A stretch of 42,124 nt of DNA from an uncultured Phycisphaera sp. (GTDB taxonomy: Bacteria; Planctomycetota; Phycisphaerae; Phycisphaerales; UBA1924): assembly GCA_963977205.1 (NCBI GenBank), contig CAXBOF010000001.1:1-42124 (forward strand). The letters run 5' to 3'. The translations under genes and the position numbers were made by a program. The notes beneath the pieces were generated by a model. It was not told the DNA's origin. It did not search any database and saw only the letters and a list, made by a program, of their open reading frames with translations. Positions within the stretch are counted from its first letter, which is position 1, and each line of letters opens with the position of its first letter. This document shows positions 3,858-42,124 of the stretch, one piece after another.

Positions 3858-4130
3858 ATGCGGGGAACGGGGCTTCTGGTCGCCTCCATTCTTGCCTCTT
3901 CAGTTTCACTCACGCACGGCAACCTCTGGTCGGGCGGTGTCTCGCTCGTCTTTGCGGCGCTTGTTCTCGAGCTTGCGCCTGAGCTGTCCCTGTCAGTCTC
4001 GCCTGCCCGACTGTCTGTGCTCCTAGAGGCGGTTGCGTCTGTGGTAGTTGTCGCAGCCGACGTCGACCACTACGCCGTGTTGGGTCTGGTGCTTGCGCTG
4101 GCATGTCTGGGGGGATCGAAGACCAAGTAA
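3858..4130 (+). CDS. Small hydrophobic ORF, 90 aa (possible membrane protein or leader exon of the next gene)
   Basis: ATG lies 26 nt downstream of the bidirectional TATA at 3825..3831. Three hydrophobic stretches, moderate GC3. Overlaps the ATG of the next gene by 28 nt. Confidence 0.3.
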   Translation: MRGTGLLVASILASSVSLTHGNLWSGGVSLVFAALVLELAPELSLSVSPARLSVLLEAVASVVVVAADVDHYAVLGLVLALACLGGSKTK

Positions 4131-5752
4131 AAGTGGTCCTCGGCGCTTTTGTGGAGAGTCCGCAGTATCGCCTTGCCGTCGAATCGTGGCAGCTTTCGAC
4201 GGTCGCGGGTGGCATCGATGTGGCCGACGGCTCGCCGGTTGATGTTCGCGGCGCAGCCGAATTGGTGCGTCACGCCCGATGTGCGGCGCCGGCTGCGTGC
4301 TGACCCTTTCCAGGTGCACTCGATGGTGCGGCAGCTGGTGCTGATGGGCTTTTGTGTGATTCAGGACGGCGTGGTGGACCCGATGGCCGCCATCTCGTGG
4401 GACAAGCAGAAGCGCGAGTGGGTTGCCCCAGTCAAGGACGAGGCTGAACCGCCCACCGTCTGCGTCTTCATGGCGCCGCTTGTGCATTCGAATGGCACTA
4501 CGCTCATGTCGTACGGCAGCGCCGCGCTGCCGGTGTGGTACCACCTGTCGGCCCTCACCGAAAATATGCGGCGGCGGGATGCGTTCAACTCGGCGCACAC
4601 CGTGTTCACCTCGGTCAATCCGAGCATGACGCCCGGCGACTCGCTCACTCCGTCCTTCATTGCGGCGCGGGGGCGGGCCGTCGGGGCCGCCGATCCAGAT
4701 TATACCACGTCTGACCGCCGGCACGAGCTGCTCGGGGACCTGATGCGCCGGTCCAACGGGCTGCGGTCCCATGGCGATGTTTTTATGGCGGGCCAGGGAT
4801 TCCCGGTCGACTCGAGGGCACCCAAGCTCCACTCGGAGCATTTTGTCACCGACGGTAAGCACCAATTTATTTTGGTCCAATCGTGCACACGGCCGGCACC
4901 GAAATCTCGCGCCCCTCGTCTGAACTCCCAAATCATGCACACGGCCCGACACCCCCACCCCTGGTTGCCCGCAATCTTCTGCTCCTGTGTCGACCCCCAA
5001 ATCGTGCACACGCCCCGACACTGGACCCCGTTCGACTCCCAAATCGTGCACACGGCCCGACACCACTGATGGCTCTGCAGGGATGAGTTCGGTGGGCGAG
5101 GCGCGACACCTGCAGGCCCCCGTGTCGGACATGAACCGGCTGGTGAAGCACTACGTGCACTCGTTCTACCAGGCGCTCGGGGTACCGCCTCAAAAGCTCG
5201 GTGCGCCGACTCTTCCTTCCCGCGCCATCGCGCCTCTCACTGACTGTGTCGCCAGGTGAGAACGTCAACTCTGAACGCCTTGCGGGATCCGAGATGATTT
5301 CGAGCGAGGCGCTGTGGACTCACGAGGCTCGAGTGCGCGATGTCCGGGATGTTGTCAACGAAGCGCTTGAGGTTCTCGGCGTCTCGCTGCGGCCGTCGGT
5401 GCGATACCGCGTCCTGGTGCAGCATCCAGAGCTGTTTGATCCGGAGAAGTACACCGACCTGCTGGCGCACTCGCTCGGGGTGCCCACCGAGTACGTGGCC
5501 CAGATCCCGGTCGAGACGGATGAGTCGACCCAGCAGCAGCCACCCACGAACGGCCGTCGGGGTGGCAATGACCACGATGCCGCCATGCAGCAAGGATCGG
5601 GGTCCCACAAACGCTGTCGCGACGGGAAGTTCTGCCAGAACAAACGGGGGGGGCCCGTGAGCGACATCCGCACTATTAGAGAACCCCATGCCAAGTTGGA
5701 TAGGGGCGAGACGCGCGTTCCGGAGGAGAAGAAGGGCCGCAATTCGGAATGA
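4103..5752 (+). CDS. Portal-like protein (tentative), 4 exons join(4103..4264,4314..4854,5081..5200,5256..5752), 439 aa
   Basis: Frames 2 -> 0 -> 1 -> 2 are linked in phase by three GT..AG introns. The spliced peptide ...VKHYVHSFYQALGVPPQKLG|GENVNSERLAGSEM... resembles the conserved ..a.GvPp.llG...sN.. segment of HK97-type phage portal proteins (recalled, not searched). The gene model is more certain than the function. Confidence 0.6.
4265..4313 (+). other. Intron, 49 nt (portal-like gene)
   Basis: GTGCGT...CTGACcctttCCAG, phase 0, frame 2 -> 0. Confidence 0.75.
4855..5080 (+). other. Intron, 226 nt, carrying four copies of a 25-nt motif (portal-like gene)
   Basis: GTAAGC...CACTGATggctctgCAG, phase 1, frame 0 -> 1. 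The only long intron in the window. Confidence 0.75.
4877..5063. repeat. Four dispersed copies of a ~25-nt motif CCCAAATCGTGCACACGGCCCGACAC inside one intron
   Basis: Copies at 4877..4900, 4927..4952, 4996..5021 and 5038..5063, with 1-3 mismatches each. Start-to-start spacings are 50, 69 and 42 nt. Confidence 0.85.
5201..5255 (+). other. Intron, 55 nt (portal-like gene)
   Basis: GTGCGC...CACTGACtgtgtcgCCAG, phase 1, frame 1 -> 2. Splits the GVPPQKLG|GENVNSE motif. Confidence 0.8.
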
Positions 5753-6681
5753 TGGACGAACGGGATGGCACCATCGTGTATGACAATGCGCTCACCGTAG
5801 ACGGCCAGCCAATGTACCACTACGCCGAGAGCGATGCGGACGGGTACATCGATCCGAGCGAATACGAGCAGCCGTTGTCCCGCGAGGCGTTCCACGAGCA
5901 CCATGCCCCCGAGGACCGATCCATTCCGGTGGTGGACGCCTCGCCCGAGACGCCGGAACGGTACCCGGCTCCGCCACGCCGTTTCTCGGCCGTTCCTGAA
6001 TCCTGGAATCCTCGCCCCGATCCTCCGCCCAAGCCTCCGCCAATCGAATCGATGCCACGGCGCCGGTCGGGACGGAGCCCACTCGTCGGCGCTGTGGGCC
6101 TGCTGGGCCTGGTGGGGTTGATCGGCATGGTGCCGTCGGACGACTCTGGTCCGGGCACTTCGGCCTCGACTGGCGCCTCGTGCCTCGTGGGATCGATCGC
6201 GTGGTCTGCTGCCCAGACGGTTCCTGCGGGGTACCGAATCGCCGACGGGTCTGAAATTGTCGAGGAGGACCACCCGGCCCTCTTTGCCGCCGTGGGGTCG
6301 GCAGTGCCCGATTTGGTGGGCCGGTACGCCCGTGGGGGCCTCGAGCCCGGTGCCGTCCTCGCCGCCTCTGTGGATGTCGGCTCGTTCTCGGTGGCCATTG
6401 ACGATCCTGGTCACTCGCACGTTGACGCAGCGGGCTCGACGGTGCTCCGCGACGGCAAGTACGCTCTGGCGCACCTCTACACGTGAGACGGCCCGCCCGG
6501 CATCGCCCCGCCCCCTCTTATGCGTGCATGCAGGTTTACGACGGACGGGGTCAACCTCAAGGACGCCGGGCCATCTGTGGTTCCTGCGCAGACGGGGATT
6601 GCTGCGCGGGTAGAGGGCGGCACCGAGACACGGCCCGCCAGCGTCGTCCTGGTTCCCCTCATCTGCACCGGCGGTCCGTAG
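5749..6681 (+). CDS. Membrane-anchored phage tail-collar domain protein, join(5749..6482,6534..6681), 293 aa
   Basis: LVGSIAWSAAQTVPAGYRIADGSEIVEEDHPALFAAVGSAVPDLVGRYARGG fits the tail-collar pattern (G.I...a....P.Gw..cdG.......yP.Lf..iG...PDLrGrf..G). Exon 2 supplies ...VEGGTETRPASVVLVPLI, the ETRP......I end of that domain. TM segment LVGAVGLLGLVGLIGMV lies upstream. The ATG overlaps the upstream stop (ATGA). Confidence 0.8.
6483..6533 (+). other. Intron, 51 nt (tail-collar gene)
   Basis: GTGAGA...ATGCAG, phase 2. The apparent stop TGA 6484..6486 is part of the donor. Splicing restores the ETRP-containing domain end. Confidence 0.85.
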
Positions 6682-6758: not shown

Positions 6759-7307
6759 ATGGGCTCGCTGTTTACAGACTTCCAGGCCGTGCTCCATTTG
6801 GCCGGGGACGCTCCCATCGTGGGCGGAGTTCGCGCGGCCGTCTTGGAGCACGGGCTTGCGTTCCCTAGCACCCCGGGGGTATTCGAACTTTTGGTCACGG
6901 TTGGGGATGATTCCCCCCCAGGGCAACAGCAGCTGTGGACGGCCATACAAGTCTTTGCTATCTTTGGTCCGGGGCTGCGCAAGGGTCCCCCGAACGACAA
7001 CCGCTGGGACGTCCACTCGTGCCGGACACAGAACCTGCCGCCTGGGGTGGTCGCAGTCCCTCCCGAGGACGACTTTGGCCGATCCCTCGAGACGCTGGCC
7101 CCGGAGCGAGTGGGGGGCCCGCCAATGCGGCTCGCGCACGTGCATCGCCTTCTGACGCGCGAGTCGGCGTCTCCCTTTATTCGGATTGTTGTCGGCGGTG
7201 CCCTCACGATCTACGTCAGCCTGACGCCATTCGTGGTCGTTGGGGCCGATGTCGAGTTTACGGTGCCGTCTGTGAAGATGGTGGGGCTCCACTGGTCTGC
7301 TCACTAG
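6759..7307 (+). CDS. Hypothetical protein, 182 aa
   Basis: High-GC3 frame from ATG 6759 (MGSLFTDFQAVL...). TATAAA at 6723..6728, 30 nt upstream. No domain recognised. Confidence 0.6.
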   Translation: MGSLFTDFQAVLHLAGDAPIVGGVRAAVLEHGLAFPSTPGVFELLVTVGDDSPPGQQQLWTAIQVFAIFGPGLRKGPPNDNRWDVHSCRTQNLPPGVVAVPPEDDFGRSLETLAPERVGGPPMRLAHVHRLLTRESASPFIRIVVGGALTIYVSLTPFVVVGADVEFTVPSVKMVGLHWSAH

Positions 7308-7525
7308 GCGCGGGTCTCGAGACGGTCGTCGGCCGTCGACATAAACGTTTCGTATGGCGCCAGTCCCCGCGCTGGCTTTGTAGTCAGCGTCTTGATGCAC
7401 GAGGCGAGCGTCAGCGCCAGCGACAGGCCCATCATGCCGACCATGGCCGCCGAGGGCGATGCGGTGCACGTTCCGTCCATCGGGGGCACATCAAAGCCCG
7501 GATAGTCACCGGACGTGTCGTCCAT
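7304..7525 (-). CDS. Small single-pass membrane protein, 73 aa
   Basis: ATG ORF with high GC3 and one TM helix (AAMVGMMGLSLALTLASCI). Sits between two plus-strand genes. AT-rich CTTATTAG lies about 30 nt upstream on the minus strand. Confidence 0.4.
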   Translation of the reverse strand: MDDTSGDYPGFDVPPMDGTCTASPSAAMVGMMGLSLALTLASCIKTLTTKPARGLAPYETFMSTADDRLETRA

Positions 7526-7603
7526 GCCCGGTTTGGACGTGCGCCGCCCGGGCCTAATAAGTGGCGCGGGATCTGGGCACGGCAGATTCGGATTTCCGAA
7601 ACG

Positions 7604-7609
7604 TATAAG
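7604..7609 (+). promoter_or_regulatory. TATA box (TATAAG) of D5-like gene
   Basis: 51 nt upstream of ATG 7661, the longest spacing in the set. Confidence 0.45.
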
Positions 7610-7660
7610 AGCCGCAGCTTGAGTGAAACACTTTCAAATCGGGCACAACCCGGCCCGCCG

Positions 7661-10600
7661 ATGTCGGCTGCACTCCCCGAGCGGATTTTCGCCCCTTGGC
7701 AAACCAAGTGCGTGCAGGCTGGTGCGACGTTCAAGGGCTCGCACTGCCTTCTCTTTACGCAGCATGTGCCCCGCGAGGCCGAGTTTGCGGATACGCACGG
7801 TGCATGCACTCCTGGCCCCCGGTGGATGGCGTATTTCGCTTTTTGCATGGAGGCGCTCCGGCGGATTCAGTGCCCCGAGACGCAGCACACGACGCTGCTG
7901 GTTGAGCAGGTGGTCGACGAGGAAACGTTTCGGGATGCGCTTGCGCGGGGAACGTGCGAGGTTACGCCGGCCCGGCCCCCACGCGCGTGGCGCTTCTGGG
8001 TCATCTTCAAGACGGTGGATTCCTACGTGCAGTTTGCCACCGCCTTTGAGCAGATGCTGGAGGAGGGGGCAGCCGCGTCAAAGAAGTGGCAGGGCACGCG
8101 GAAGGGCGGTCCGCCCAGGGTGGATCAGGCGTCGTGGGTCTCCATTGCGGGGTCTGATGACCTCATCCACGGTCTGCAGCACACTTGCAACATCCCTGGT
8201 GGCGCCAGCAGCATTGCACTCGACCCGGGAGCCGACATTGGCGCCAAGAACCACATGCTCAACCTCCAGTCGTCCGAGTTGCTGCACGTCAGTGGGGCGT
8301 GCCCCGCACAGACGGGACGATCGTACATCGATCGACCCACCCAGCCCGGCATGTTTGATGCGGGGGATGACGACTCGGGTCCGCGGCTGACCTGGCGGGC
8401 ACCCTACTCAAGGACCACGAACGCGGGCATCAACGCGGGCATCAACCCGTGCGTCGCACGCTTTCCCTTTGCGCCATGGGGCCCGAGGACGGACGATTTC
8501 CGCCGCCTGGCATACCTCGGGACTCCGACGCCCGCCCGCGTGCTAGAGCCGCACCTCCTCAATCGGGCCACTGGACCGGGCCAGGCGGACCTCATCCGCA
8601 AGCACGCGGACAGCAACACTCTCGACGAGTACCTCGCGAACACCCCGGATGTCAACGACCCGCGCGATGCGGGCATTGTCACTGGGGACTCGGACGCGGG
8701 GGGCGCTGCACTGTCCCGCTCGGCTGCCATGGCACCCGAGTTTGCACAGAACGAGGAGTCGGCATCTGCTCGCATGCGGGCCCTCCGAGTCAGCACCGAG
8801 ACCCTGGCGGACCAGGTCGAGACAGAGGCTGATATCAGGCGCTTTGTGGCCAAGATTCAAGGTCCCACTCGCTTTCTGAAGGAGGCCCCCGTCCCCGATT
8901 CCATCCCATCAAGCTACCACGCCCTGGCGACTGCTGCAGCTGCGACAGCGCGGGGTCCTGCCACGGACGCGACCAAGTGGGCCCGTGCATTCTTTGACGA
9001 CTGCCAGAACACGTCCGATCTCATGCGACGACTGTCGGTTGCGCTCGAGCGGTACGCTGGGCTGCACGTGGCTCAGGTGACTGTGTCCAACTGGGTCATC
9101 CTGGCAATCATGGCTCCGCTGCTCGGGCCGGCCCCTCGGGCGCACACTGCACTGGTGGGACAGCCCGCAGCCGGAAAAAGCTGGACGATGGACGTCCTGC
9201 GGAAGATCATGCCAGGGATGTTTTCGTCGGTCGACTACACGTCGCTCAAGGCAACCCTGGTGGACACGCTCGGGAGCCGCAAGGTCCAGGTGACGGACGA
9301 GATTGCCAAATCCGAACGGGTGAGCGGCGAGAAAACGCGGCTTTCGAGTGGCGAGGAGCGCGGCATCAGGGCCGCCGTGGTGACGGATGCCAACGGAAAC
9401 AGCAAGGTCGTCTCGCAAGACTTTACATCCGTGTGGAACCACACGCAACTCGCCTGTGGGAACCAGCCACCTCGCGGCGACACGCCAATCGACACGCTGG
9501 CGCTGCAATCGCGGCAGCAGGTGATTCACTGCGCCAACCCCAAGGGGTTTGCATCCGGGACGCCGAGGCTCCACGACCAAGTCCTGCTGGCCATCCGGAT
9601 GTTCCTGACCGGGGCTCCGATGCAGGTCGGCTACATCTGGGCTGCCGGCTGCCCCGTCGCGTCCTCGGATATGATGGAGGCGAGTCCCATGGCGCGCCGT
9701 CCCCAACCCGCGCCCGCTCATCCCTCTGCAGGTGCTGCAGGCGTACCGCCGGGTCAAGGGCAAGGCGCCAATTCCTGCGCGCGAACTGTCCCGCCTGCGT
9801 GCTGCTGCCATTGGAGCCATGTCGGTTCGGATGGGCATCGAGACACGGGGAATGGAGGGCATGGCCGTCGACGAGTACATTGTCCGCAACGCCTACGTCC
9901 GGACCGAGGACATTGTGATTGCTCTGCAGACCATGGTGCTTCCCACGCAGCCCGAGATGGCCCGCCCAGTCTCACCCGCCACAGGACGCCGTCGCGCAGT
10001 CGCATGCGGGCACCATCGTGTTCAAGGCGCTGAAGAACATGGTCAACGTGAACATTGAGCGCGATGCAGACGGAAACATTACTGGTGCGGCGGTGGAAAC
10101 CGACAACAAGGGCGAGCGGGCCATCCTTACACAGGCGATGACTCAAAAGTGGTTTGACCGTCTTGTCGCGACCGTGTGTGCGATTGCCAAGCGCGACGAC
10201 CGTGAAATGGTCCGCCTCGGCCAGCGCCCAGCCACGCGCCGGCTGCCACTCACTGCGCGCGCAGGTTCCGGCTGACGATGTTCTTCGGCGACAGCTGCAG
10301 GAAGCTACGAGCGGCGCCAGGCCCATCGTTCTCGAGTGCATCAAGAACGAATCGAGACAGGCGCTCGGGATTGACCTGAAGCAGGTTGGACCAGTCTACA
10401 CCAAGACCGAGGCTGCCATGATCAAATTCCTGCACGACATCTGCAAGACGCTTGCGTACACGGCCGTTCGGTACCCGGACGAGAATCACGTCATCTTTGG
10501 GTCGTCCATCGTTGATGACATGCGACAGGCCCATCAAACGTGTCGCAAATGGGGCCCCGGGGCCGAGAAGATGTGGACGCGAGCGACCAAGAACCTCGAT

Positions 10601-31141: not shown

Positions 31142-32448
31142 ATGGAAAAGAAGACGTACATCATCTCATGGAACGCCATCGCGGCGGCGATCCACTTTGG
31201 CGTCGCAGGATTCGTAATCTCGGAGGTCGCCGGCGGCGCTTTCCGGGTGCCAGTGCATCCGCTGACGCTCGCTCCAGGTGTACCAGCATCCGTGGGAGGC
31301 CCCCTTTGTCGTCCAGTATTCCCAGTGGAATCAGACGGGCGATGAGCGGTGCTCGGCCGAATCCCAGTGCCTCATCGCGCAAGCCTCGGTGCGCAAAACG
31401 CGTCTGCCAGGGCGCGCCCGTCCTGACTGGACCACTTCCGCAGATTGACTGGGGCACGGCCAATGTCGGCATGATCGTGGGTCGGATGCCCTGCCGCCAG
31501 CCCGCCCGCCCTGACGCGCTGCAGGTGCCATTCTTCAGCGTCATCTCCGGGGCCCATCATGCCGCCGTCGCCGTGTGGGTCGGTTGGGAGGGGGTCGATG
31601 CCTACCTCAAAATGGCCAAACGGGGCAACTGGCTGCGGGCAGTTGACTATGCACTCTCGTCGTCCCTGATGCTCGTCGTCACATCCATCCTGTTTCGGTC
31701 GCCGCCCGACGTGCCAACCCTGATGCTCGTGGCTGCAGTCCAGAGCGCCATCATCCTCATCGGGTACCTCCTCGAACGACTCCAGTACCGCCAGACCACT
31801 ACGGAGGAAAGGCAACCGCTTTTATCGGGCCAGGGAGACGACATCTCTACAGTGGACACTGCTGCGATTCAAGGCGATTTGACCGCGGATACGACGTCCG
31901 GGAAGCAGGCCTTTGGCGTGTGGATCCCGTTTGCGGCGTCGATGCTGATTTACGCTTTGGTGTGGACCAGCCTCCTGATCCCTTTTCACTACGCGGTGGA
32001 AGATGCGCCGACGGCGGTGGTGATTTTCATTGCGAGTCTTGCGGCACCCGGTGCGCGGCGAGGTCTGACTGTGGCCGCTGCAGGTCTACCTGGTGGCGAC
32101 GTTCACGCTCTTCCCGATCGTGTTTGTGTTTGGGGCGCCGGGACTGGGTCGCGAGACGGGCTTTCTGATTCTGAGCATGCTTGCCAAGGTGGGCAGTCCT
32201 GTGGCGGCACTGCGGCGACATTGCACGCTGACCGCGGCGCCCAGGTTCCGCTTCTGATGCTCTTTTACTTTGGGATTGTGGCGCGGTCGGGGACGGTTGT
32301 GTTCGAACGGCTGGAGGGTGCATTCAACACGACCGGCTCGTCCTCGTCCGCCAGCGACACCGAACTGTACATCGCGTTCGGCGCCTCTATTGCCGTCGTG
32401 ACCATCGTGGCCATCCTGATGTGGGGGACCAGGCCGAACCGAAAGTAG
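31142..32448 (+). CDS. Heliorhodopsin, 6 exons join(31142..31225,31278..31388,31444..31476,31525..32040,32084..32188,32245..32448), about 350 aa
   Basis: The spliced product aligns by eye with heliorhodopsin 48C12 (recalled from memory). AIHFGVAG matches GVFHLLQ. SGAHHAAV matches SALFHFIV. NWLRAVDYALSSSLMLVV matches NIFRWVEYSLSSSVMIVL, with Asp at the counterion position. RETGFLILSMLAK matches GERAYIVLSLVAK, the Schiff-base Lys (codon 32186..32188). That lysine exon is in a different frame from the long track ORF. The junction at 32017..32083 is unresolved. Confidence 0.85.
31226..31277 (+). other. Heliorhodopsin intron 1, 52 nt
   Basis: GTCGCC...CTGACgctcgctcCAG, phase 0, frame 2 -> 0. Confidence 0.7.
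31389..31443 (+). other. Heliorhodopsin intron 2, 55 nt
   Basis: GTGCGC...CTGACtggaccacttccgCAG, phase 0, frame 0 -> 1. Confidence 0.75.
31477..31524 (+). other. Heliorhodopsin intron 3, 48 nt, in-frame and retainable
   Basis: GTGGGT...CTGACgcgctgCAG, phase 0. Removal deletes VGRMPCRQPARPDALQ and gives VGMIVPFFSVISGAHH, which aligns with the heliorhodopsin TM2 region. Confidence 0.65.
32041..32083 (+). other. Heliorhodopsin intron 4, donor unresolved (GC-AG 43 nt shown; GT donors at 32017 or 32020 are alternatives)
   Basis: Acceptor CTGACtgtggccgctgCAG at 32083 is required to enter the frame encoding the lysine exon. Only phase-0 donors work. The consensus-looking GTGCGC at 32051 is out of phase. 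Confidence 0.3.
32189..32244 (+). other. Heliorhodopsin intron 5, 56 nt
   Basis: AAG|GTGGGC...CTGACcgcggcgccCAG, phase 0, immediately after the Schiff-base Lys codon. Returns to frame 1. Confidence 0.85.
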
Positions 32449-34581: not shown

Positions 34582-35940
34582 TCAGTCCGTCTCTACGACG
34601 GCGGTGATGCCGGGCCCGACTGTAAAGAGCTCGCGCCTGGTGGCACGCTGGGCGGCGACGAGGAAGTGCGTCTTCCGGATGCTTCCGTTTCCGACGACGT
34701 GAACGCCTGCTGGGGCCGTCATGCCCTGAGCCATGTCGATGGTGAAGCCGCCTGTGGGAGTTTAGCGGGCGCGCGCCCACATCCGCGCGGGCCTGGAAAT
34801 ACCGTGCCGGATGGGAACCACAAAGTGGCCTTCGAGCTCGAGGGGCTGCAGCGACACCTCTTCGCCAGTGCTGAGGATCGTGACGACGACGATGGCGTTT
34901 TCACCCATGACGACCGAGTCGGCCTCGATCTCTTCGCCGTCCTCGGAGATGACGCGCTCAAATCGGATGTCAGTCCCGTTGGTGAGCAGCGTCCCCCTTT
35001 CGGTGGCCCTGGCCTTGGTGTCAATGTCGACGCAGCCGTAGACGAGCCAGCCCTTGGTGTGGCCGCCCACAAAGCGCCCATCTTCGGCGTCCTTGCCGCG
35101 CTCCTTGGGGATGGTTTCGGGGTCGCTGGGGAGCAGCAGGATGCCCTCTCTGTCATTCTCGCGGAACTGCCGCACTGCTTCCCGCACATCCTCCCTGATC
35201 TGCCCGAGGATCAGAGCCCCCTCTGGCGGAACGGCAGCCCGACGCTGCCGGACAAGCTGATCCGCCAGCCCGCCCGGGATTTGCCATTCCTGGAGCTCGC
35301 TGAGGACGCGCTTCCAGTCGGGGTCCGTGTACCGCCGCGACTCTTTCAGCTCGATCGGGGGCGCCCTGCGCAGCAGAGGATGCGTGGATGCGGGCTTTCC
35401 ACCCCTCGGCTTGATCTGGCCCTCGTCGCCCACAAACAGGACGCGGACGCCGCCAAACGGCATCGACCTCGCCCGAAAGGTGCACCTCAGGATGGCATCC
35501 AGCTTGGCAATCTCGGCCGATGTCCACAGGCCAAACTCTTCGACGACAAGGATCTTTGGCGTCCCGGCGGGCGTATTGTACCACGGCTTTGATTTGGCAG
35601 TGCCGAGGGGAACCTTTGCCCACCATTTGGCGTCGATGGCGATCTTGGCCCACACGACGGCTTCTGGTGGGTAGCTGCCCCGCGGAACGGCGAGCCCGGC
35701 AATCGTCTGCCGGTGCTGCCCCAGCGACTTGTGGCTGATGGCAGTCACCATCACGCGGCAGCCGGCGTTTACCCAGCATCTGAGGACGTCTGCCACGACG
35801 ACGGACTTGCCAGTTCCGGCTTTCCCTATGAGCAGCACAACGCGGTGCGCCTCGAATAAGTCGCCGATCTGATCCGCTGCGGCCCTTTGCTCGCCCGACA
35901 GCACGGGGGGAGCCTGCGGAGTGGATTCGCGCCCGTCCAT
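34582..35940 (-). CDS. Pif1/RecD-like SF1 helicase, complement(join(34582..34751,34803..35940)), 435 aa
   Basis: Walker A LLIGKAGTGKSVV, motif II KILVVEEFG, MPFGGVRVLFVGDEGQIKP. Removing a 51-nt GTATTT..CTAAAC..CAG intron (phase 1) adds GFTIDMAQGMT...HFLVAAQRATRRELFTV, the C-terminal conserved motifs of this helicase type. Confidence 0.85.
34752..34802 (-). other. Intron, 51 nt (SF1 helicase gene, minus strand)
   Basis: Minus-strand GTATTT...CTAAACtcccaCAG, phase 1. Removes stop 34762..34764 and restores the helicase C-terminal motifs. Confidence 0.85.
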
Positions 35941-36093: not shown

Positions 36094-36447
36094 TTAGGGC
36101 ACCTGCGCTGCCCCCGTCTTTGGAGTGTCCTTCTTGACCTCGACGACGACCGAGTGCCCGGGCACGGCGATTAGCAGGTCTGCCCGCCCGGTTCCACAAT
36201 GGACGGGTCCATCAGCGCCGATCGGGGTGTACATGATGGGACAGGGCGCCTCGCGGGTCACCGAGACTCCGGGGAGCATGTGGCGGACCTCGGCGGCAAG
36301 GGCGGTGGAGATCCACTCTTCCCGGCAGGGGTAATCCTTGAAGGCGCGGGCGACGCGCCAGGCGCTGGCCTTGACGGCCCACTCGACGCGGGCAATCCAC
36401 GCATCAGTTCCTTCGTGCCCGCCCCGACCGAGTCCTGCCGCCGCCAT
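36094..36447 (-). CDS. PD-(D/E)XK (VRR-NUC-like) nuclease, 117 aa
   Basis: ...GTGRADLLIAVPGHSVVVEVKKD is a D..(n)..E.K nuclease-core pattern. I start at ATG 36447 (MAAAGLG...), 36 nt downstream of a TATAAT. The upstream part of the 420-aa track ORF is Arg-rich shadow sequence. Confidence 0.5.
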   Translation of the reverse strand: MAAAGLGRGGHEGTDAWIARVEWAVKASAWRVARAFKDYPCREEWISTALAAEVRHMLPGVSVTREAPCPIMYTPIGADGPVHCGTGRADLLIAVPGHSVVVEVKKDTPKTGAAQVP

Positions 36448-38073: not shown

Positions 38074-39787
38074 CTACCCAATGCTGTTTGGAAAGAGTTC
38101 CTTGAACGCCTGAAGAAAGTTGGCGGGCGGGGACCCCGCAGGCGGAACCTCGGGCGACTTCCATCGTGCCCACAGCTCTACGGCCACGCCGTGCGCCTCT
38201 TCGGCCGTCGTCTCCACAAACCGGTCCACAGAGGCCACGGCCGCCTCGGGCGCCTGCGCGTCAAACGCACGCAGAAAGTGATCCAGCTCTGCCGCCCCAA
38301 AAGCCTTTGGATTCTCTGCAAACCGCGCCAGAAACCCATCCATGTCCTCGGGCCGGGCGGCGCCGTAAATTTCCGCTGCGGCGTCCTCGCCACTCGAAAA
38401 GTCGGGGCAGTCCGCATCGAGGCGAACGAGGGTGCTCGAATCGACTGTGGCCTCGGAACCAGCGTCCTCTGCCTCCGCCTCGGGCTCTTCGGGCGCCTCG
38501 TTCCCAGAGGCAACGTCGGACCAGGCGTCCGGCGGGCCGGGGTGGGTCATCGTCTCGTCGACGTGCTCGACACAATCGTCGCCGTCGCCACCGAGATGGC
38601 CGTCCCGACTGCCATCGTCCACCGTCGGCGCTGCGTCTCCATCGCATCCACCACCTGCAGTTGGGGTGAGCCATGCGTCGGCACGGAAACGGACAGGCCG
38701 CACCGAGGGGGTCAGGAGCATCGGACTCAGCCATAGGATCACTGCGAGCCGGAAGAGCGTCTCTACTGTTTCCCTGGTTGACATGACGTTTATAATGGGC
38801 GACTCTCGGGTGACAATGGCCGACGAGGCGAGTCCCGCCATCATCTGCACCAGAATGCCTGCGGGCGGCGTCGGCGGGTGGCGGGGGCGGCAGGGCGGGC
38901 ACCGAACCCAGACGGCCCACAAAGGGCACCTGAAGGGCGACTACGATGGCGGGCTCGATCAGACGGCGCTCCCACTCTTCGATGGGGCCGCGCTCGGCCT
39001 GCAGGAACCGGAGCACGACCACGATGGCCGCCCCGGCGCCACAGATGCCCACGAAAGAGGCGTACCGCAGATATCGCCAGGCGGTGCTCGTCTCGAAGGT
39101 TTCGGCCGCGCCCACGATGGCGCCGAGAGCCGCAAGGGGACCGTCCACAATCAGCAGGAGCCACTTGGTCGAGTCTGCATCGGCGTCGGTGTCGTGCCGT
39201 GTTCCGGCGACGAGGGCCAGATAGATGCCGAGGAGGACTGTGGACATGATGGCCGCCGCGTCGTACAGGCTGCCCGTGGGGTGCGGCAGGATGATCCGAG
39301 TGGCGCCGTCGGTGCCGACCGTCAGGTACGCCCCGAGCGCCGTGGCGGACAGTGTGACGGTTCCGGGGACGCCCGACTCGGACGGGGTCAGATCGGCCGC
39401 CCAGACAGGATCGGTGCCGCGAAAGAGGGCGACGGTGGCCTCGACGCCGTTTGGGAACTGGTGGGCGGGCGCCGAAAAATCAAAGACGACCGGTCGCTGC
39501 ACGGTGACTGCATCGGACGAGAGGGTGCACTTCAGGCCGGTGGGATGCCCCAGGTCGGTTCCGACGGGCCCGATGGGCGGCAGCGTGTGCAGCCGGCCAC
39601 CGTGGATCCACAGGGGACTGCCGACTGCGGCCGCGACGTCCGAGAGGGCGATTGGGACCTCTGTGATGGTGACGTGGTGGTGGTCGACCTCGATGACGGT
39701 GGGGGATACGGCGACGGCGGCGGGGTCGGGGACGAGGCCAAAGTCCATCAGGGCGAACCCCGCGGCCGTGAGGGCGTACAGCTGCAT
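38074..39787 (-). CDS. Multi-pass membrane glycoprotein with acidic C-terminal domain, complement(join(38074..38858,38908..39787)), 554 aa
   Basis: ATG 39787 (MQLYALTAAGFALMDFG, signal-like) lies 31 nt after a minus-strand TATAAG. The order is ectodomain, hydrophobic helices, a 49-nt GTTCGG..CAG intron (phase 1), more TM sequence, then an Asp/Glu-rich tail. This joins two track ORFs (38261..39862 and 38074..38922). Confidence 0.8.
38859..38907 (-). other. Intron, 49 nt (minus strand)
   Basis: Minus-strand GTTCGG...cgcccgCAG, phase 1. Joins two overlapping track ORFs into one membrane protein. Confidence 0.8.
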
Positions 39788-41339: not shown

Positions 41340-42124
41340 ATGTCTGCCAGCCGAGACCCCCGATACGAATTGGATGAGTTAACAGCTCGTCTGGAAGCTT
41401 TAGATCAAGAACTCTCGGAGAGGGTGAAAGAAAGCGGTCGGCTCGAAGCTAGCAATTTTCAGTTGACGCAAAGGCTCGAGCGTGCAAAGGAAGAACTCGC
41501 ACGCAGTAGCCCAGGTCAGGCTGCAGCCCTTCAAGAGGTTCTAGACGATGAAGTCAAAAAACAAGCCGATCTCAGAGACAAGAACGATCGCCTTGCAGCG
41601 AAACTTGCAGAGCTCACAGAGGGTACAAAAACTCTCGCGGCTGAGCTGGAAGCGGCACAGGCCGAGGTAAAGCAGAAAAGTGAGGAAGCGGGAAGATTGG
41701 AAGCCGAATTGGAGCAAACTCGAGCCGCTCTCACTGCCCAACAGACCCTGAGCAAAGAACAAGCCACGCGCATCCAAGAGGTTGCAGCCGAAGCCGAGGC
41801 GGCACGGGCCCTGACAAATGAGAAAAGTGAGGCCGCGGGAACACTCCAGGCCCGTCTAGACGAGGCTCAAGCCGCTCTCACTGCCCAACAGAACCTGAAC
41901 GAAACACAAGCCAGAGGCATCCGAGACCTCGAAGAGAGCCTCGGGGAGGCTACAGCCGGAGCCGAGGCGGCACAGGCCGTGGCAAATGAGAAAAGTGAGG
42001 CCGCGGGAACGCTCCAAGCCCGTCTAGACGAGGCTCAAGTCGCTCTCACTGACCAACAGAACCTGAACGAAACACAAGCCAGGGGCATCCGAGACCTCGA
42101 AGATAGCCTCGGGGAGGCTACAGC
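41340..42124 (+). CDS. Coiled-coil protein with 56-aa tandem repeats, 3'-partial (runs off window)
   Basis: ATG lies 35 nt after TATATG 41299..41304, and the frame is open to the window end (absent from the ORF track because there is no stop). The sequence is heptad-like and Glu/Ala/Gln/Leu-rich. Codons are noticeably more A/T-ending than in the rest of the window. Confidence 0.8.
   Translation, partial: MSASRDPRYELDELTARLEALDQELSERVKESGRLEASNFQLTQRLERAKEELARSSPGQAAALQEVLDDEVKKQADLRDKNDRLAAKLAELTEGTKTLAAELEAAQAEVKQKSEEAGRLEAELEQTRAALTAQQTLSKEQATRIQEVAAEAEAARALTNEKSEAAGTLQARLDEAQAALTAQQNLNETQARGIRDLEESLGEATAGAEAAQAVANEKSEAAGTLQARLDEAQVALTDQQNLNETQARGIRDLEDSLGEAT
41625..42124 (+). repeat. 168-nt (56-aa) tandem coding repeat, about 3 units
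   Basis: Units starting at 41793 and 41961 are near-identical (...NEKSEAAGTLQARLDEAQ.ALT.QQNLNETQARGIRDLE.SLGEATA). The preceding unit from about 41625 is diverged. The third unit is cut by the window end. Confidence 0.85.

What the first reader, a model, noticed from the sequence alone, without database searches (positions are those of the whole stretch)
4103..5752. Portal-like gene whose best motif is split by an intron
The segment SFYQALGVPPQKLG|GENVNSERLAGSEMISSEALW only exists after joining exons 5081..5200 and 5256..5752. It resembles the conserved GvPp.llG....sN stretch near the wing and stem helices of HK97-type phage portal proteins. The protein size (439 aa) fits a phage-type portal better than the larger herpesvirus portal. 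The basic C-terminal tail (…KRCRDGKFCQNKRGG…EEKKGRNSE) is unusual.
Basis: inference. Interest (0 to 1): 0.65.

Follow-up and report, generated by a model that had tools for sequence, protein, structure and literature searches.

The report
Intron-split portal gene of a mirusvirus-like virus
This is a real, intact gene for a capsid portal protein (the ring through which a virus packs its DNA), broken by three short host-type introns; it fits the recently described intron-rich mirusviruses, so it is a good but ordinary example of a known kind.

Summary
Window 4103..5752 (+) has four exons (4103-4264, 4314-4854, 5081-5200, 5256-5752) and three GT-AG introns of 49, 226 and 55 nt. Together they encode a 439-aa protein.

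The spliced product aligns without gaps across all three junctions to uninterrupted ~380-aa homologues from related metagenomic viruses.

Seven independent metagenome contigs carry the same virus at 90-99% nt identity:
- They keep every splice site.
- All indels fall inside introns. Intron 2 is 226, 214, 213 or 179 nt.
- In the more divergent strains, introns differ 3-5 times more than exons.
- pN/pS is 0-0.13 on the spliced core.

The AlphaFold2 model (pLDDT 81, pTM 0.74) matches only portal proteins in the PDB and BFVD. These are small HK97-type portals of bacterial and archaeal tailed viruses, not the herpesvirus portal.

The motif LGVPPQKLGENVNSERLAGS aligns with HK97 FFGVPPHLVGDVEK. In the model it lies between a stem helix and the long wing helix.

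Context points to an intron-rich mirusvirus, a kind published in 2025: a heliorhodopsin gene, CTGAC branch motifs, 64% GC and mostly unannotatable genes. No capsid or terminase gene was identified in the window.

The C-terminal tail is a disordered, fast-evolving, lineage-specific extension and only mildly basic.

Verdict: new member of a known kind.

The parts
4103..5752 (+). Portal protein gene: 4 exons and 3 introns, giving a 439-aa product
   Evidence: Spliced translation. Alignment to homologues. tblastn from an intron-less relative. Portal fold.
4103..4264 (+). Exon 1 (codons 1-54): N-terminal helical hairpin of the wing
   Evidence: The start ATG and N-terminus align with homologue N-termini. 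Helices 5-18 and 20-34 in the model.
4265..4313 (+). Intron 1: 49 nt, phase 0, GTGCGT...CTGAC...CAG
   Evidence: It differs by 16.3% in strain L023, against 4.4-5.6% in the flanking exons. Splice sites are conserved.
4314..4854 (+). Exon 2 (codons 55 to first base of 235): wing beta-sheet, helix 126-147, stem helix 184-211, start of clip (FVTDG)
   Evidence: pN/pS of the core is 0-0.13.
4855..5080 (+). Intron 2: 226 nt, phase 1 (splits Gly235), GTAAGC...CTGAT...CAG; holds 4 direct copies of ~AATCGTGCACACGGCC(CGACAC)
   Evidence: Repeats. Length is 226, 214, 213 or 179 nt among strains, so not always a multiple of 3, with 5 indel events in L022, L023 and L025. No stable RNA fold, z = +1.06. No Rfam match.
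5081..5200 (+). Exon 3 (rest of codon 235 to first base of 275): clip strand 236-241, stem helix 249-266, GVPPQKL
5201..5255 (+). Intron 3: 55 nt, phase 1 (splits Gly275 inside the motif), GTGCGC...CTGAC...CAG
   Evidence: It differs by 12.7-21.8% in strains L004, L024, L022 and L025, against 0-5% in the flanking exons. Its length is constant and its splice sites are conserved.
5256..5752 (+). Exon 4 (codons 275-439 plus stop): tunnel-loop segment, long wing helix 285-315, small crown helices 325-348, disordered tail
5176..5290 (+). Coding bases of the conserved motif LGVPPQKLGENVNSERLAGS (residues 267-286): 5176-5200 plus 5256-5290, interrupted by intron 3
   Evidence: Nearly invariant in 13 homologues. 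Aligns to HK97 FFGVPPHLVGDVEK. Lies between helix 249-266 and helix 285-315.
5513..5749 (+). C-terminal tail (residues 361-439): disordered and lineage-specific, with a local KRCRDGKFCQNKR cluster
   Evidence: pLDDT below 50 from residue 375. Absent from P0003-P0009; a different Cys- and basic-rich tail is present in P0010 and P0011. pN/pS 0.45-1.7, with no indels.

Best explanation
The locus encodes the portal protein of a large double-stranded DNA virus of a unicellular eukaryote, most likely an intron-rich mirusvirus (phylum Mirusviricota). The primary transcript carries three short GT-AG introns with CTGAY branch-like motifs. The host spliceosome must remove them in the nucleus to restore a 439-aa reading frame.

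The product has the small HK97-type portal fold, in this order: N-terminal helices and an alpha/beta wing; stem helix (184-211); clip (about 212-248, including the FVTDG strand); second stem helix (249-266); the GVPPQKLGENVNSE segment, which occupies the position of the tunnel loop; a long wing helix (285-315); and a small crown.

By analogy with solved portals, twelve copies would form the ring at one capsid vertex. Through that ring the terminase pumps the genome in, and the genome later leaves.

What is shown: the gene structure, purifying selection on the spliced frame, and the fold. What is inferred: splicing in vivo, ring assembly, nuclear expression, and assignment to Mirusviricota.
For: **Exon structure**
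- The spliced ORF is intact.
- Alignment to 13 uninterrupted homologues is gap-free at the junctions.
- tblastn pieces from an intron-less 139-kb relative coincide with the exons.

**Population test on 7 independent metagenome contigs at 90-99% nt identity**
- All GT/AG sites and CTGAY motifs are kept.
- There are zero indels in exons.
- Intron 2 length varies: 226, 214, 213 or 179 nt.
- In the divergent strains L022, L023 and L025, introns differ by 12-22% and exons by 3-6%.
- pN/pS of the core is 0-0.13.

**Fold**
- AF2 model with pLDDT 81.3 and pTM 0.74.
- All top-50 PDB hits are portals; every named hit in the BFVD top 50 is a tailed-phage protein, nearly all annotated as portal (also with the shallower model).

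**Sequence link to the HK97-type portal family**
- Pfam PF04860 is the only family hit by more than one member, 9 of 98.
- Colinear hhalign pairs the GVPP motifs.
- A local profile search is enriched over shuffles.

**Mirusvirus context**
- Heliorhodopsin ORF at 31168-32448.
- 64% GC.
- Very few annotatable genes.
- At least two other genes in the window also carry short introns.
- PMC12768974 reports mirusviruses with GC up to 72%, GT-AG introns 14-fold enriched in virion genes including the portal, branch consensus CTGAC or CYSAC in the intron-rich orders, and heliorhodopsin as a core gene.
- PMC10132985 established a portal in the mirusvirus virion module.
Against: - The window protein itself has no hit in Pfam, and none in PDB by sequence. 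In PHROGs it has only a non-significant one (E 0.47).
- Profile-profile similarity to phage portals is statistically weak: P 0.011, probability 4%.
- TM-scores to solved portals are moderate (0.44-0.48), as expected for a monomer model with mobile domains, but they are not proof of identical topology.
- No major capsid protein, terminase, triplex or protease gene was recognised in the 42-kb window.
- The contig names were not found in the supplementary tables of PMC12768974, and IMG/VR holds no relative. Assignment to Mirusviricota therefore rests on indirect features.
- No transcript data were available to show splicing.
Confidence: 0.85

Rival explanations
1. The gene is a decaying portal pseudogene in an endogenous viral element of a eukaryotic genome. 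On this reading the 'introns' are insertions or frame-breaking debris.
For: Intron-bearing viral genes are also typical of decaying endogenous elements (PMC12768974). Free virus, episome and integrant cannot be told apart from a 42-kb window. No transcript evidence is available.
Against: - pN/pS of the spliced core is 0-0.13 in six strain comparisons.
- No exon carries an indel or a stop in any of 7 independent contigs.
- All six splice dinucleotides and the branch-like motifs are conserved while intron interiors diverge by 12-22%.
- No cellular-looking genes occur in the window, and gene order is shared with intron-less viral contigs.
Confidence: 0.06
2. The protein has a portal-like fold but is not the capsid portal of this virus. 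It could be a paralogue or an exapted ring protein, with the true portal encoded elsewhere in the genome.
For: The window shows no linked terminase or capsid gene. At 439 aa it is at the small end, given that the published curated mirusvirus portal alignment is 543 aa long.
Against: - The family has 193 representatives, mostly 400-530 aa, at E<=1e-3. The published portal alignment length falls within that size range, though the counts are not directly comparable.
- The whole length of the fold is matched, not a single domain.
- The core is under strong constraint.
- There is one copy per contig in every relative inspected.
Confidence: 0.05
3. The interruptions are not spliceosomal introns. They could instead be self-splicing group I or II introns, assembly errors, or sites of programmed frameshifting or bypassing.
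For: Splicing was not observed directly.
Against: - There is no Rfam match in the window.
- Intron 2 has no stable fold (z = +1.06).
- Introns of 49 and 55 nt are far too short for self-splicing ribozymes.
- The same interruptions occur in 7 independent assemblies.
- Boundaries are canonical GT-AG with CTGAY, as described for mirusvirus introns.
- Intron 2 lengths of 226, 213 and 179 nt differ modulo 3, which no fixed frameshift could accommodate.
Confidence: 0.02

Closest known systems
Portal proteins of Mirusviricota, with spliceosomal introns in virion-module genes (Gaia et al. 2023, PMC10132985; Medvedeva et al. 2025, PMC12768974)
   Same: A portal-fold protein in a GC-rich eukaryotic-virus-like contig. 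Short GT-AG introns with a CTGAC-type branch motif. Introns in a virion morphogenesis gene. A heliorhodopsin gene nearby. Most genes are unannotatable. Intron presence varies between relatives: the nearest relatives at 40-50% aa identity have none.
   Different: Membership could not be tested against the published portal HMM or phylogeny. No MCP, terminase or triplex gene was seen in the window. This lineage has a disordered 65-80-aa C-terminal extension that its closest relatives lack. Intron 2 carries a variable-copy internal repeat.
HK97-type phage portal proteins (Pfam PF04860 Phage_portal; e.g. HK97 gp3, T5, Haloferax tailed virus 1, GTA portal)
   Same: Size of about 400 aa. The same order of wing, stem, clip, stem, tunnel-loop segment, long helix and small crown. 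A GVPPxxxG motif at the same place. These are the best structural matches.
   Different: Only 10-14% identity. The window protein does not reach any Pfam threshold. It is encoded with spliceosomal introns in a eukaryotic-virus context. No adjacent terminase, protease or capsid gene cluster, as phages have.
Herpesvirus portal (pUL6 family; EBV BBRF1, PDB 7bqt)
   Same: A portal of a nuclear-replicating eukaryotic duplodnavirus. The nuclear expression inferred here parallels herpesvirus capsid assembly.
   Different: Herpes portals are much larger. Structural similarity is marginal (rank 49, E 0.05, TM 0.15), with no Pfam hit.
Introners (intron-generating transposable elements; PMC12166617, PMC12768974)
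   Same: Intron 2 is long for this genome, repeat-bearing, absent from relatives, and variable in length between strains.
   Different: No second copy occurs in the window. All four metagenome matches to its repeat unit are the same portal locus. No terminal inverted repeats or target-site duplication were seen.

Membership tests
Portal protein of tailed viruses and relatives (HK97-type, PF04860-like) | Portal fold (wing, stem helices, clip, long kinked helix, crown) over the full length | tested here: met
   AF2 model with pLDDT 81.3 and pTM 0.74. All 50 best PDB Foldseek hits are portals, E down to 4e-6, TM 0.44-0.48, 385-494 aligned columns. BFVD top hits are Caudoviricetes portals.
Portal protein of tailed viruses and relatives (HK97-type, PF04860-like) | Significant sequence-profile match to the Phage_portal family | tested here: inconclusive
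   The query itself has no Pfam hit. 9 of 98 family members hit PF04860, best E 3e-4. hhalign against 18 HK97-type portals gives P 0.011 and probability 4%, colinear over 269 columns. A local profile hits 88 of 129 members against 16 of 640 shuffles at E<=10.
Portal protein of tailed viruses and relatives (HK97-type, PF04860-like) | Conserved GVPPxxxG segment between the second stem helix and the long wing helix | tested here: met
   LGVPPQKLG (267-275) lies between helix 249-266 and helix 285-315. It aligns to HK97 FGVPPHLVG. 36 of 52 best profile domains cover it.
Portal protein of tailed viruses and relatives (HK97-type, PF04860-like) | Assembly into a dodecameric ring at one capsid vertex | not testable with these tools
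   No multimer prediction or experiment was available.
Portal protein of tailed viruses and relatives (HK97-type, PF04860-like) | Genome also encodes an HK97-fold capsid protein and a large terminase | tested here: inconclusive
   None was recognised among 20 large ORFs of the window by Pfam. Ten of these were also run against PHROGs and four against PDB sequences.
Mirusviricota (intron-rich lineages) | Portal falls within the mirusvirus portal clade or HMM | not testable with these tools
   The published HMMs and sequences are not on hand. The contig names are absent from the paper's supplements.
Mirusviricota (intron-rich lineages) | Core non-virion genes such as heliorhodopsin | tested here: met
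   ORF 31168-32448 hits PF18761 Heliorhodopsin with E 3.5e-10, above the gathering score. It is listed as a core mirusvirus function in PMC12768974.
Mirusviricota (intron-rich lineages) | Canonical GT-AG introns in virion genes, with branch consensus CTGAC or CYSAC | tested here: met
   Three GT-AG introns with CTGAC, CTGAT and CTGAC (CTGAC in all three in strains L022, L023 and L025). The consensus comes from PMC12768974.
Herpesvirus portal (pUL6 family) | Sequence or close structural match to herpesvirus portals | tested here: not met
   No Pfam hit. The EBV portal appears only at rank 49, E 0.05, TM 0.15, and is absent from the top 50 with the better model.
Spliceosomal introns | GT-AG boundaries, a branch-like motif, and removal that restores a conserved frame | tested here: met
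Spliceosomal introns | Relaxed constraint inside introns with conserved splice signals across strains | tested here: met
   In the divergent strains L022, L023 and L025, introns differ by 12-22% and exons by 3-6%. All indels are in introns, and the splice signals are invariant.
Spliceosomal introns | Spliced transcripts observed | not testable with these tools
   No transcriptome data are accessible.
Introners | Several near-identical intron copies at different loci of one genome | tested here: not met
   The intron-2 repeat unit occurs only in intron 2 within the window. The 4 JGI metagenome matches are all the same portal locus. Only 42 kb of the genome, and no host genome, could be searched.

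The most novel reading that the evidence does not exclude
Intron 2 may be a young, still-changing insertion. It is 226 nt and carries four copies of a ~22-32-nt unit. It is absent from every relative at 50% aa identity or less. Among strains that differ by under 10% it varies between 179 and 226 nt through gain and loss of repeat units. If so, it could be a snapshot of intron gain by a repeat-bearing mobile element (an introner-like element shared with the unknown host) inside the clip-coding part of an essential virion gene. Separately, the lineage-specific Cys- and basic-containing C-terminal tail (KRCRDGKFCQNKR) may act as a nuclear import signal for a portal that must reach the nucleus.
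Probability: 0.12. Interest if true: 0.5.

Novelty: new member of a known kind. Interest (0 to 1): 0.3.

Why it matters
The locus is a clean, internally validated example of a virion gene in a large eukaryotic virus that depends on the host spliceosome. Population data from seven metagenomes confirm the exon-intron structure without any RNA data.

It supports the published idea that intron-rich mirusviruses express late genes in the nucleus. It also shows that their portal keeps the small HK97-type architecture, down to the GVPP segment, rather than the enlarged herpesvirus form.

Practically, prokaryote-style gene callers truncate this gene: database entries P0001 and P0002 read into intron 2. 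Portal-based surveys of such viruses will therefore miss or mis-size it unless splicing is modelled.

It does not open a new question beyond what the 2023 and 2025 mirusvirus papers established.

Tried and rejected
- **Direct family searches with the 439-aa protein.** Pfam and PDB sequences gave nothing; PHROGs gave only one non-significant hit (E 0.47).
- **PDB search with the 98-sequence family profile.** Only chance hits to ribosomal protein L34e, through the low-complexity tail.
- **hhalign against HK97 gp3 alone, and against a narrow 74-96%-identity HK97 alignment.** Only a 24-column match was found. A search with HK97 gp3 returned only close relatives and was of little use for a diverse profile. 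I then assembled 14 diverse phage portals from GenBank phage records.
- **IMG/VR scan for relatives.** None found. A 16-mer of the intron repeat in IMG/VR gave 13 matches that share nothing else with the window, so they are chance.
- **Introner hypothesis.** No second copy anywhere accessible.
- **Structured or self-splicing intron.** No Rfam hit and no stable fold.
- **Search for capsid, terminase or other virion genes in the window.** No hits from Pfam on 20 large ORFs, PHROGs on 10 or PDB sequences on 4, apart from heliorhodopsin, a PIF1-like helicase and a Collar domain.
- **GC3-based gene map.** Too weakly discriminating to be useful.
- **Source names for family members.** None carry an informative name.
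- **Contig identifiers in the supplements of PMC12768974.** Not found.
Full report
**1. What is in the sequence**

The window is 64% G+C throughout. Between 4103 and 5752 on the + strand no single frame is open.

Joining 4103-4264, 4314-4854, 5081-5200 and 5256-5752 gives a 1320-nt reading frame of 439 codons plus a stop. The three excised segments are:

| Intron | Coordinates | Length | Phase | Boundaries |
|---|---|---|---|---|
| 1 | 4265-4313 | 49 nt | 0 | GTGCGT...CAG |
| 2 | 4855-5080 | 226 nt | 1, splits Gly235 | GTAAGC...CAG |
| 3 | 5201-5255 | 55 nt | 1, splits Gly275 | GTGCGC...CAG |

Each has CTGAC or CTGAT 12-16 nt before the 3' AG.

Exons show codon periodicity (GC2 0.36-0.52, GC3 0.65-0.87). 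Introns do not.

**2. Is the splicing model real?**

Three independent lines say yes.

*(a) Homologues.* A search of 5.8 billion proteins found thirteen homologues of 259-413 aa at 40-50% identity. It also found two 99%-identical entries (P0001, P0002), which are prokaryote-style ORF calls of this same gene reading on into intron 2. The spliced product aligns to the homologues with no gap at any junction. G235, G275 and the stretch G268-S286 (bar two positions) are invariant.

*(b) An intron-less relative.* The homologue P0004 is one uninterrupted 382-aa ORF in 139-kb metagenome contigs. Its tblastn pieces on the window are 4112-4225, 4308-4856, 5080-5202 and 5255-5605, which are the four exons. 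About twenty neighbouring genes are syntenic. The order PIF1-like helicase ... portal, Collar-domain gene, ~1100-aa gene recurs in other relatives.

*(c) Strain variation.* Seven independent metagenome contigs carry the same virus lineage at 90-99% nt identity: three from ENA (L004-L006) and four from JGI (L022-L025).

- All six splice dinucleotides and the CTGAY motifs are conserved across these contigs.
- Exons contain no indel and no stop.
- Intron 2 is 226, 214, 213 or 179 nt long, so its length is not conserved modulo 3.
- In the more distant strains, introns differ by 12-22% and exons by 3-6%.
- On the spliced frame, pN/pS is 0.00-0.13 for residues 55-360.

This rules out assembly error, frameshifting and a decaying pseudogene as the main explanation. 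The introns are not ribozyme-like: there is no Rfam match, and intron 2 folds no better than shuffles (z = +1.06). Splicing in vivo was not observed and remains inferred.

**3. What the protein is**

The protein itself has no hit in Pfam or PDB sequences, and only a non-significant one in PHROGs.

A profile of the first homologues, searched against 1.84 billion representatives, found 193 proteins at E<=1e-3, mostly 400-530 aa.

With a 13-sequence alignment the AlphaFold2 model was mediocre (pLDDT 64), yet its 48 best PDB matches were all portal proteins. With a 98-sequence alignment the model reached pLDDT 81.3 and pTM 0.74, with only residues 215-218 and 375-439 unreliable. Its matches were:

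- In the PDB, the 50 best hits are all portals. Examples are Haloferax tailed virus 1 (E 4e-6, TM 0.44-0.48), T5, Pakpunavirus, P74-26, G20c, the Rhodobacter gene transfer agent, T4, JBD30, HK97, Mu and lambda.
- In BFVD, every named hit among the top 50 is a tailed-phage protein, and almost all of those are annotated as portal.
- The EBV portal appeared only once, at rank 49 (E 0.05, TM 0.15).

The order of secondary-structure elements is:

- N-terminal helical hairpin
- helix 48-65 plus six short strands
- helix 126-147
- stem helix 184-211
- low-confidence clip loop
- strand 236-241
- stem helix 249-266
- short turn 271-274
- loop
- long helix 285-315
- small C-terminal helices 325-348

From general knowledge of portal structures, this is the wing / stem / clip / stem / tunnel loop / long wing helix / crown order of small HK97-type portals.

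**4. The motif**

HK97 gp3 reads ...ELARFFGVPPHLVGDVEKSTSWGSG....

- hhalign of the family profile against HK97 alone, or against a narrow HK97 alignment, failed.
- Against 18 diverse HK97-type phage portals the alignment is colinear over 269 columns. It pairs ALGVPPQKLGENVNS with FFGVPPHLVGDVEKS. Its statistics are weak: P 0.011, probability 4%.
- A local HMM of those phage portals hits 88 of 129 family sequences at E<=10, against 16 of 640 shuffled controls. Of the 52 best domains, 36 cover the GVPP position. The best example is family member P0093, with IAFAFGVPPHITGENVNS against iarvfgvPphlvgdleka.
- Pfam Phage_portal is the only Pfam family hit by more than one member, 9 of 98, best E 3e-4.

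Intron 3 sits inside this segment. Intron 2 sits just after the FVTDG strand of the clip.

**5. What virus**

Within the window:

- ORF 31168-32448 is a heliorhodopsin (E 3.5e-10).
- There is a PIF1-like helicase, and the portal's downstream neighbour has a Collar domain.
- Nothing else among twenty large ORFs matched Pfam, and none of the subsets run against PHROGs (ten) or PDB sequences (four) matched either.
- At least two other genes are split by short introns.

These traits fit the intron-rich mirusviruses described by Medvedeva et al. 2025 (PMC12768974):

- GC of 25-72%.
- 37,703 mostly GT-AG introns, peaking at ~80 bp.
- 14-fold enrichment of introns in virion genes, including the portal.
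- Branch consensus CTGAC (Styxvirales) or CYSAC (Okeanovirales).
- Only 13-14% of genes with a Pfam annotation in those orders.
- Heliorhodopsin as a core gene.
- Intron positions that vary between close relatives.

The mirusvirus portal itself was reported in 2023 (PMC10132985).

I could not find a capsid, triplex or terminase gene in the window. I could not test the protein against the published portal set, and the contig names do not occur in that paper's supplements. I put assignment to Mirusviricota at about 0.75. The portal call stands on its own evidence.

**6. The introns and the tail**

All thirteen homologues at 50% identity or less are uninterrupted. The three introns are therefore specific to this lineage, and gain is the parsimonious reading.

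Intron 2 holds four direct copies of a unit around AATCGTGCACACGGCC(CGACAC). Strains differ by loss or gain of units. The unit occurs nowhere else in the window, and all four JGI metagenome matches are this same locus. The defining introner feature, several copies at different loci, is therefore not met with the data at hand.

The C-terminal tail (361-439) has these properties:

- It is disordered.
- It is absent from the nearest relatives. A different Cys- and basic-rich tail (…CRKGTQKRARTEE) is present in P0010 and P0011.
- It is only mildly basic, with 16 K+R against 13 D+E.
- It evolves with pN/pS 0.45-1.7 but without indels.

A role of the KRCR...KR cluster in nuclear import is a guess consistent with nuclear assembly. 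It was not tested.

**7. Verdict**

The finding is a well-behaved new member of a known kind: an intron-split, HK97-type portal gene of a mirusvirus-like virus. Its interest is modest. Its practical value is as a worked case showing that unspliced gene calls truncate such genes in public protein collections.

Noticed in passing
window 5749-6681 (+), intron 6483-6533: The gene just downstream of the portal has a Phage Tail Collar domain (PF07484, E 3.5e-5) and overlaps the portal stop (ATGA). Its apparent stop at 6484-6486 lies inside a GTGAG 5' splice site of a 51-nt in-frame GT-AG intron. The intron-less homologue in L001 aligns through to 6672.
   Followed up: partly
window 31168-32448 (+): Heliorhodopsin-like ORF (PF18761, E 3.5e-10, above the gathering score). 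It is a core gene of mirusviruses according to PMC12768974.
   Followed up: partly
window 38580-39508 (-): The homologue of an uninterrupted 303-aa L001 gene is split into three tblastn pieces (39508-38906, 38859-38701, 38657-38580). This implies two introns of about 45 nt in another gene of unknown function.
   Followed up: no
window 6935-10033 (+), probable start near 7652: A large conserved ORF of 793-1032 aa (1092-1121 aa in relatives) with a Walker A motif, GQPAAGKS. It has no Pfam, PHROG or PDB sequence hit. It keeps its place after the portal and Collar genes in all relatives inspected.
   Followed up: partly
window 34762-35940 (-): A PIF1-like / AAA_30 helicase. A PIF1-like helicase lies a few kb from the portal in relatives L001, L039 and L040 too.
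   Followed up: partly
window 4855-5080, compared with L004 and L022-L025: Intron 2 of the portal gene is length-polymorphic between strains (226, 214, 213 and 179 nt) through gain and loss of its internal ~22-43-nt repeat units.
   Followed up: yes
window 41778-42124: A tandem repeat with a 168-nt period, 2.1 copies at 93% match, running off the end of the window. It looks like a coding repeat rich in Glu, Ala and Gln.
   Followed up: no
window 36292-36388 (-): ARAGORN calls a 97-nt tRNA-Ala(cgc) inside a long ORF. It is unusually long, so it is either intron-containing or, more likely, a false positive in GC-rich DNA. There is no Rfam tRNA hit at gathering score.
   Followed up: no
protein database entries P0001 and P0002 (contigs L004-L006): Public protein collections hold this portal only as truncated 244-283-aa products that read through the exon 2 / intron 2 boundary (…FVTDGKHQFILVQSCTRPAPKSR…). 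This is an artefact of prokaryote-style gene calling on an intron-bearing viral genome.
   Followed up: yes
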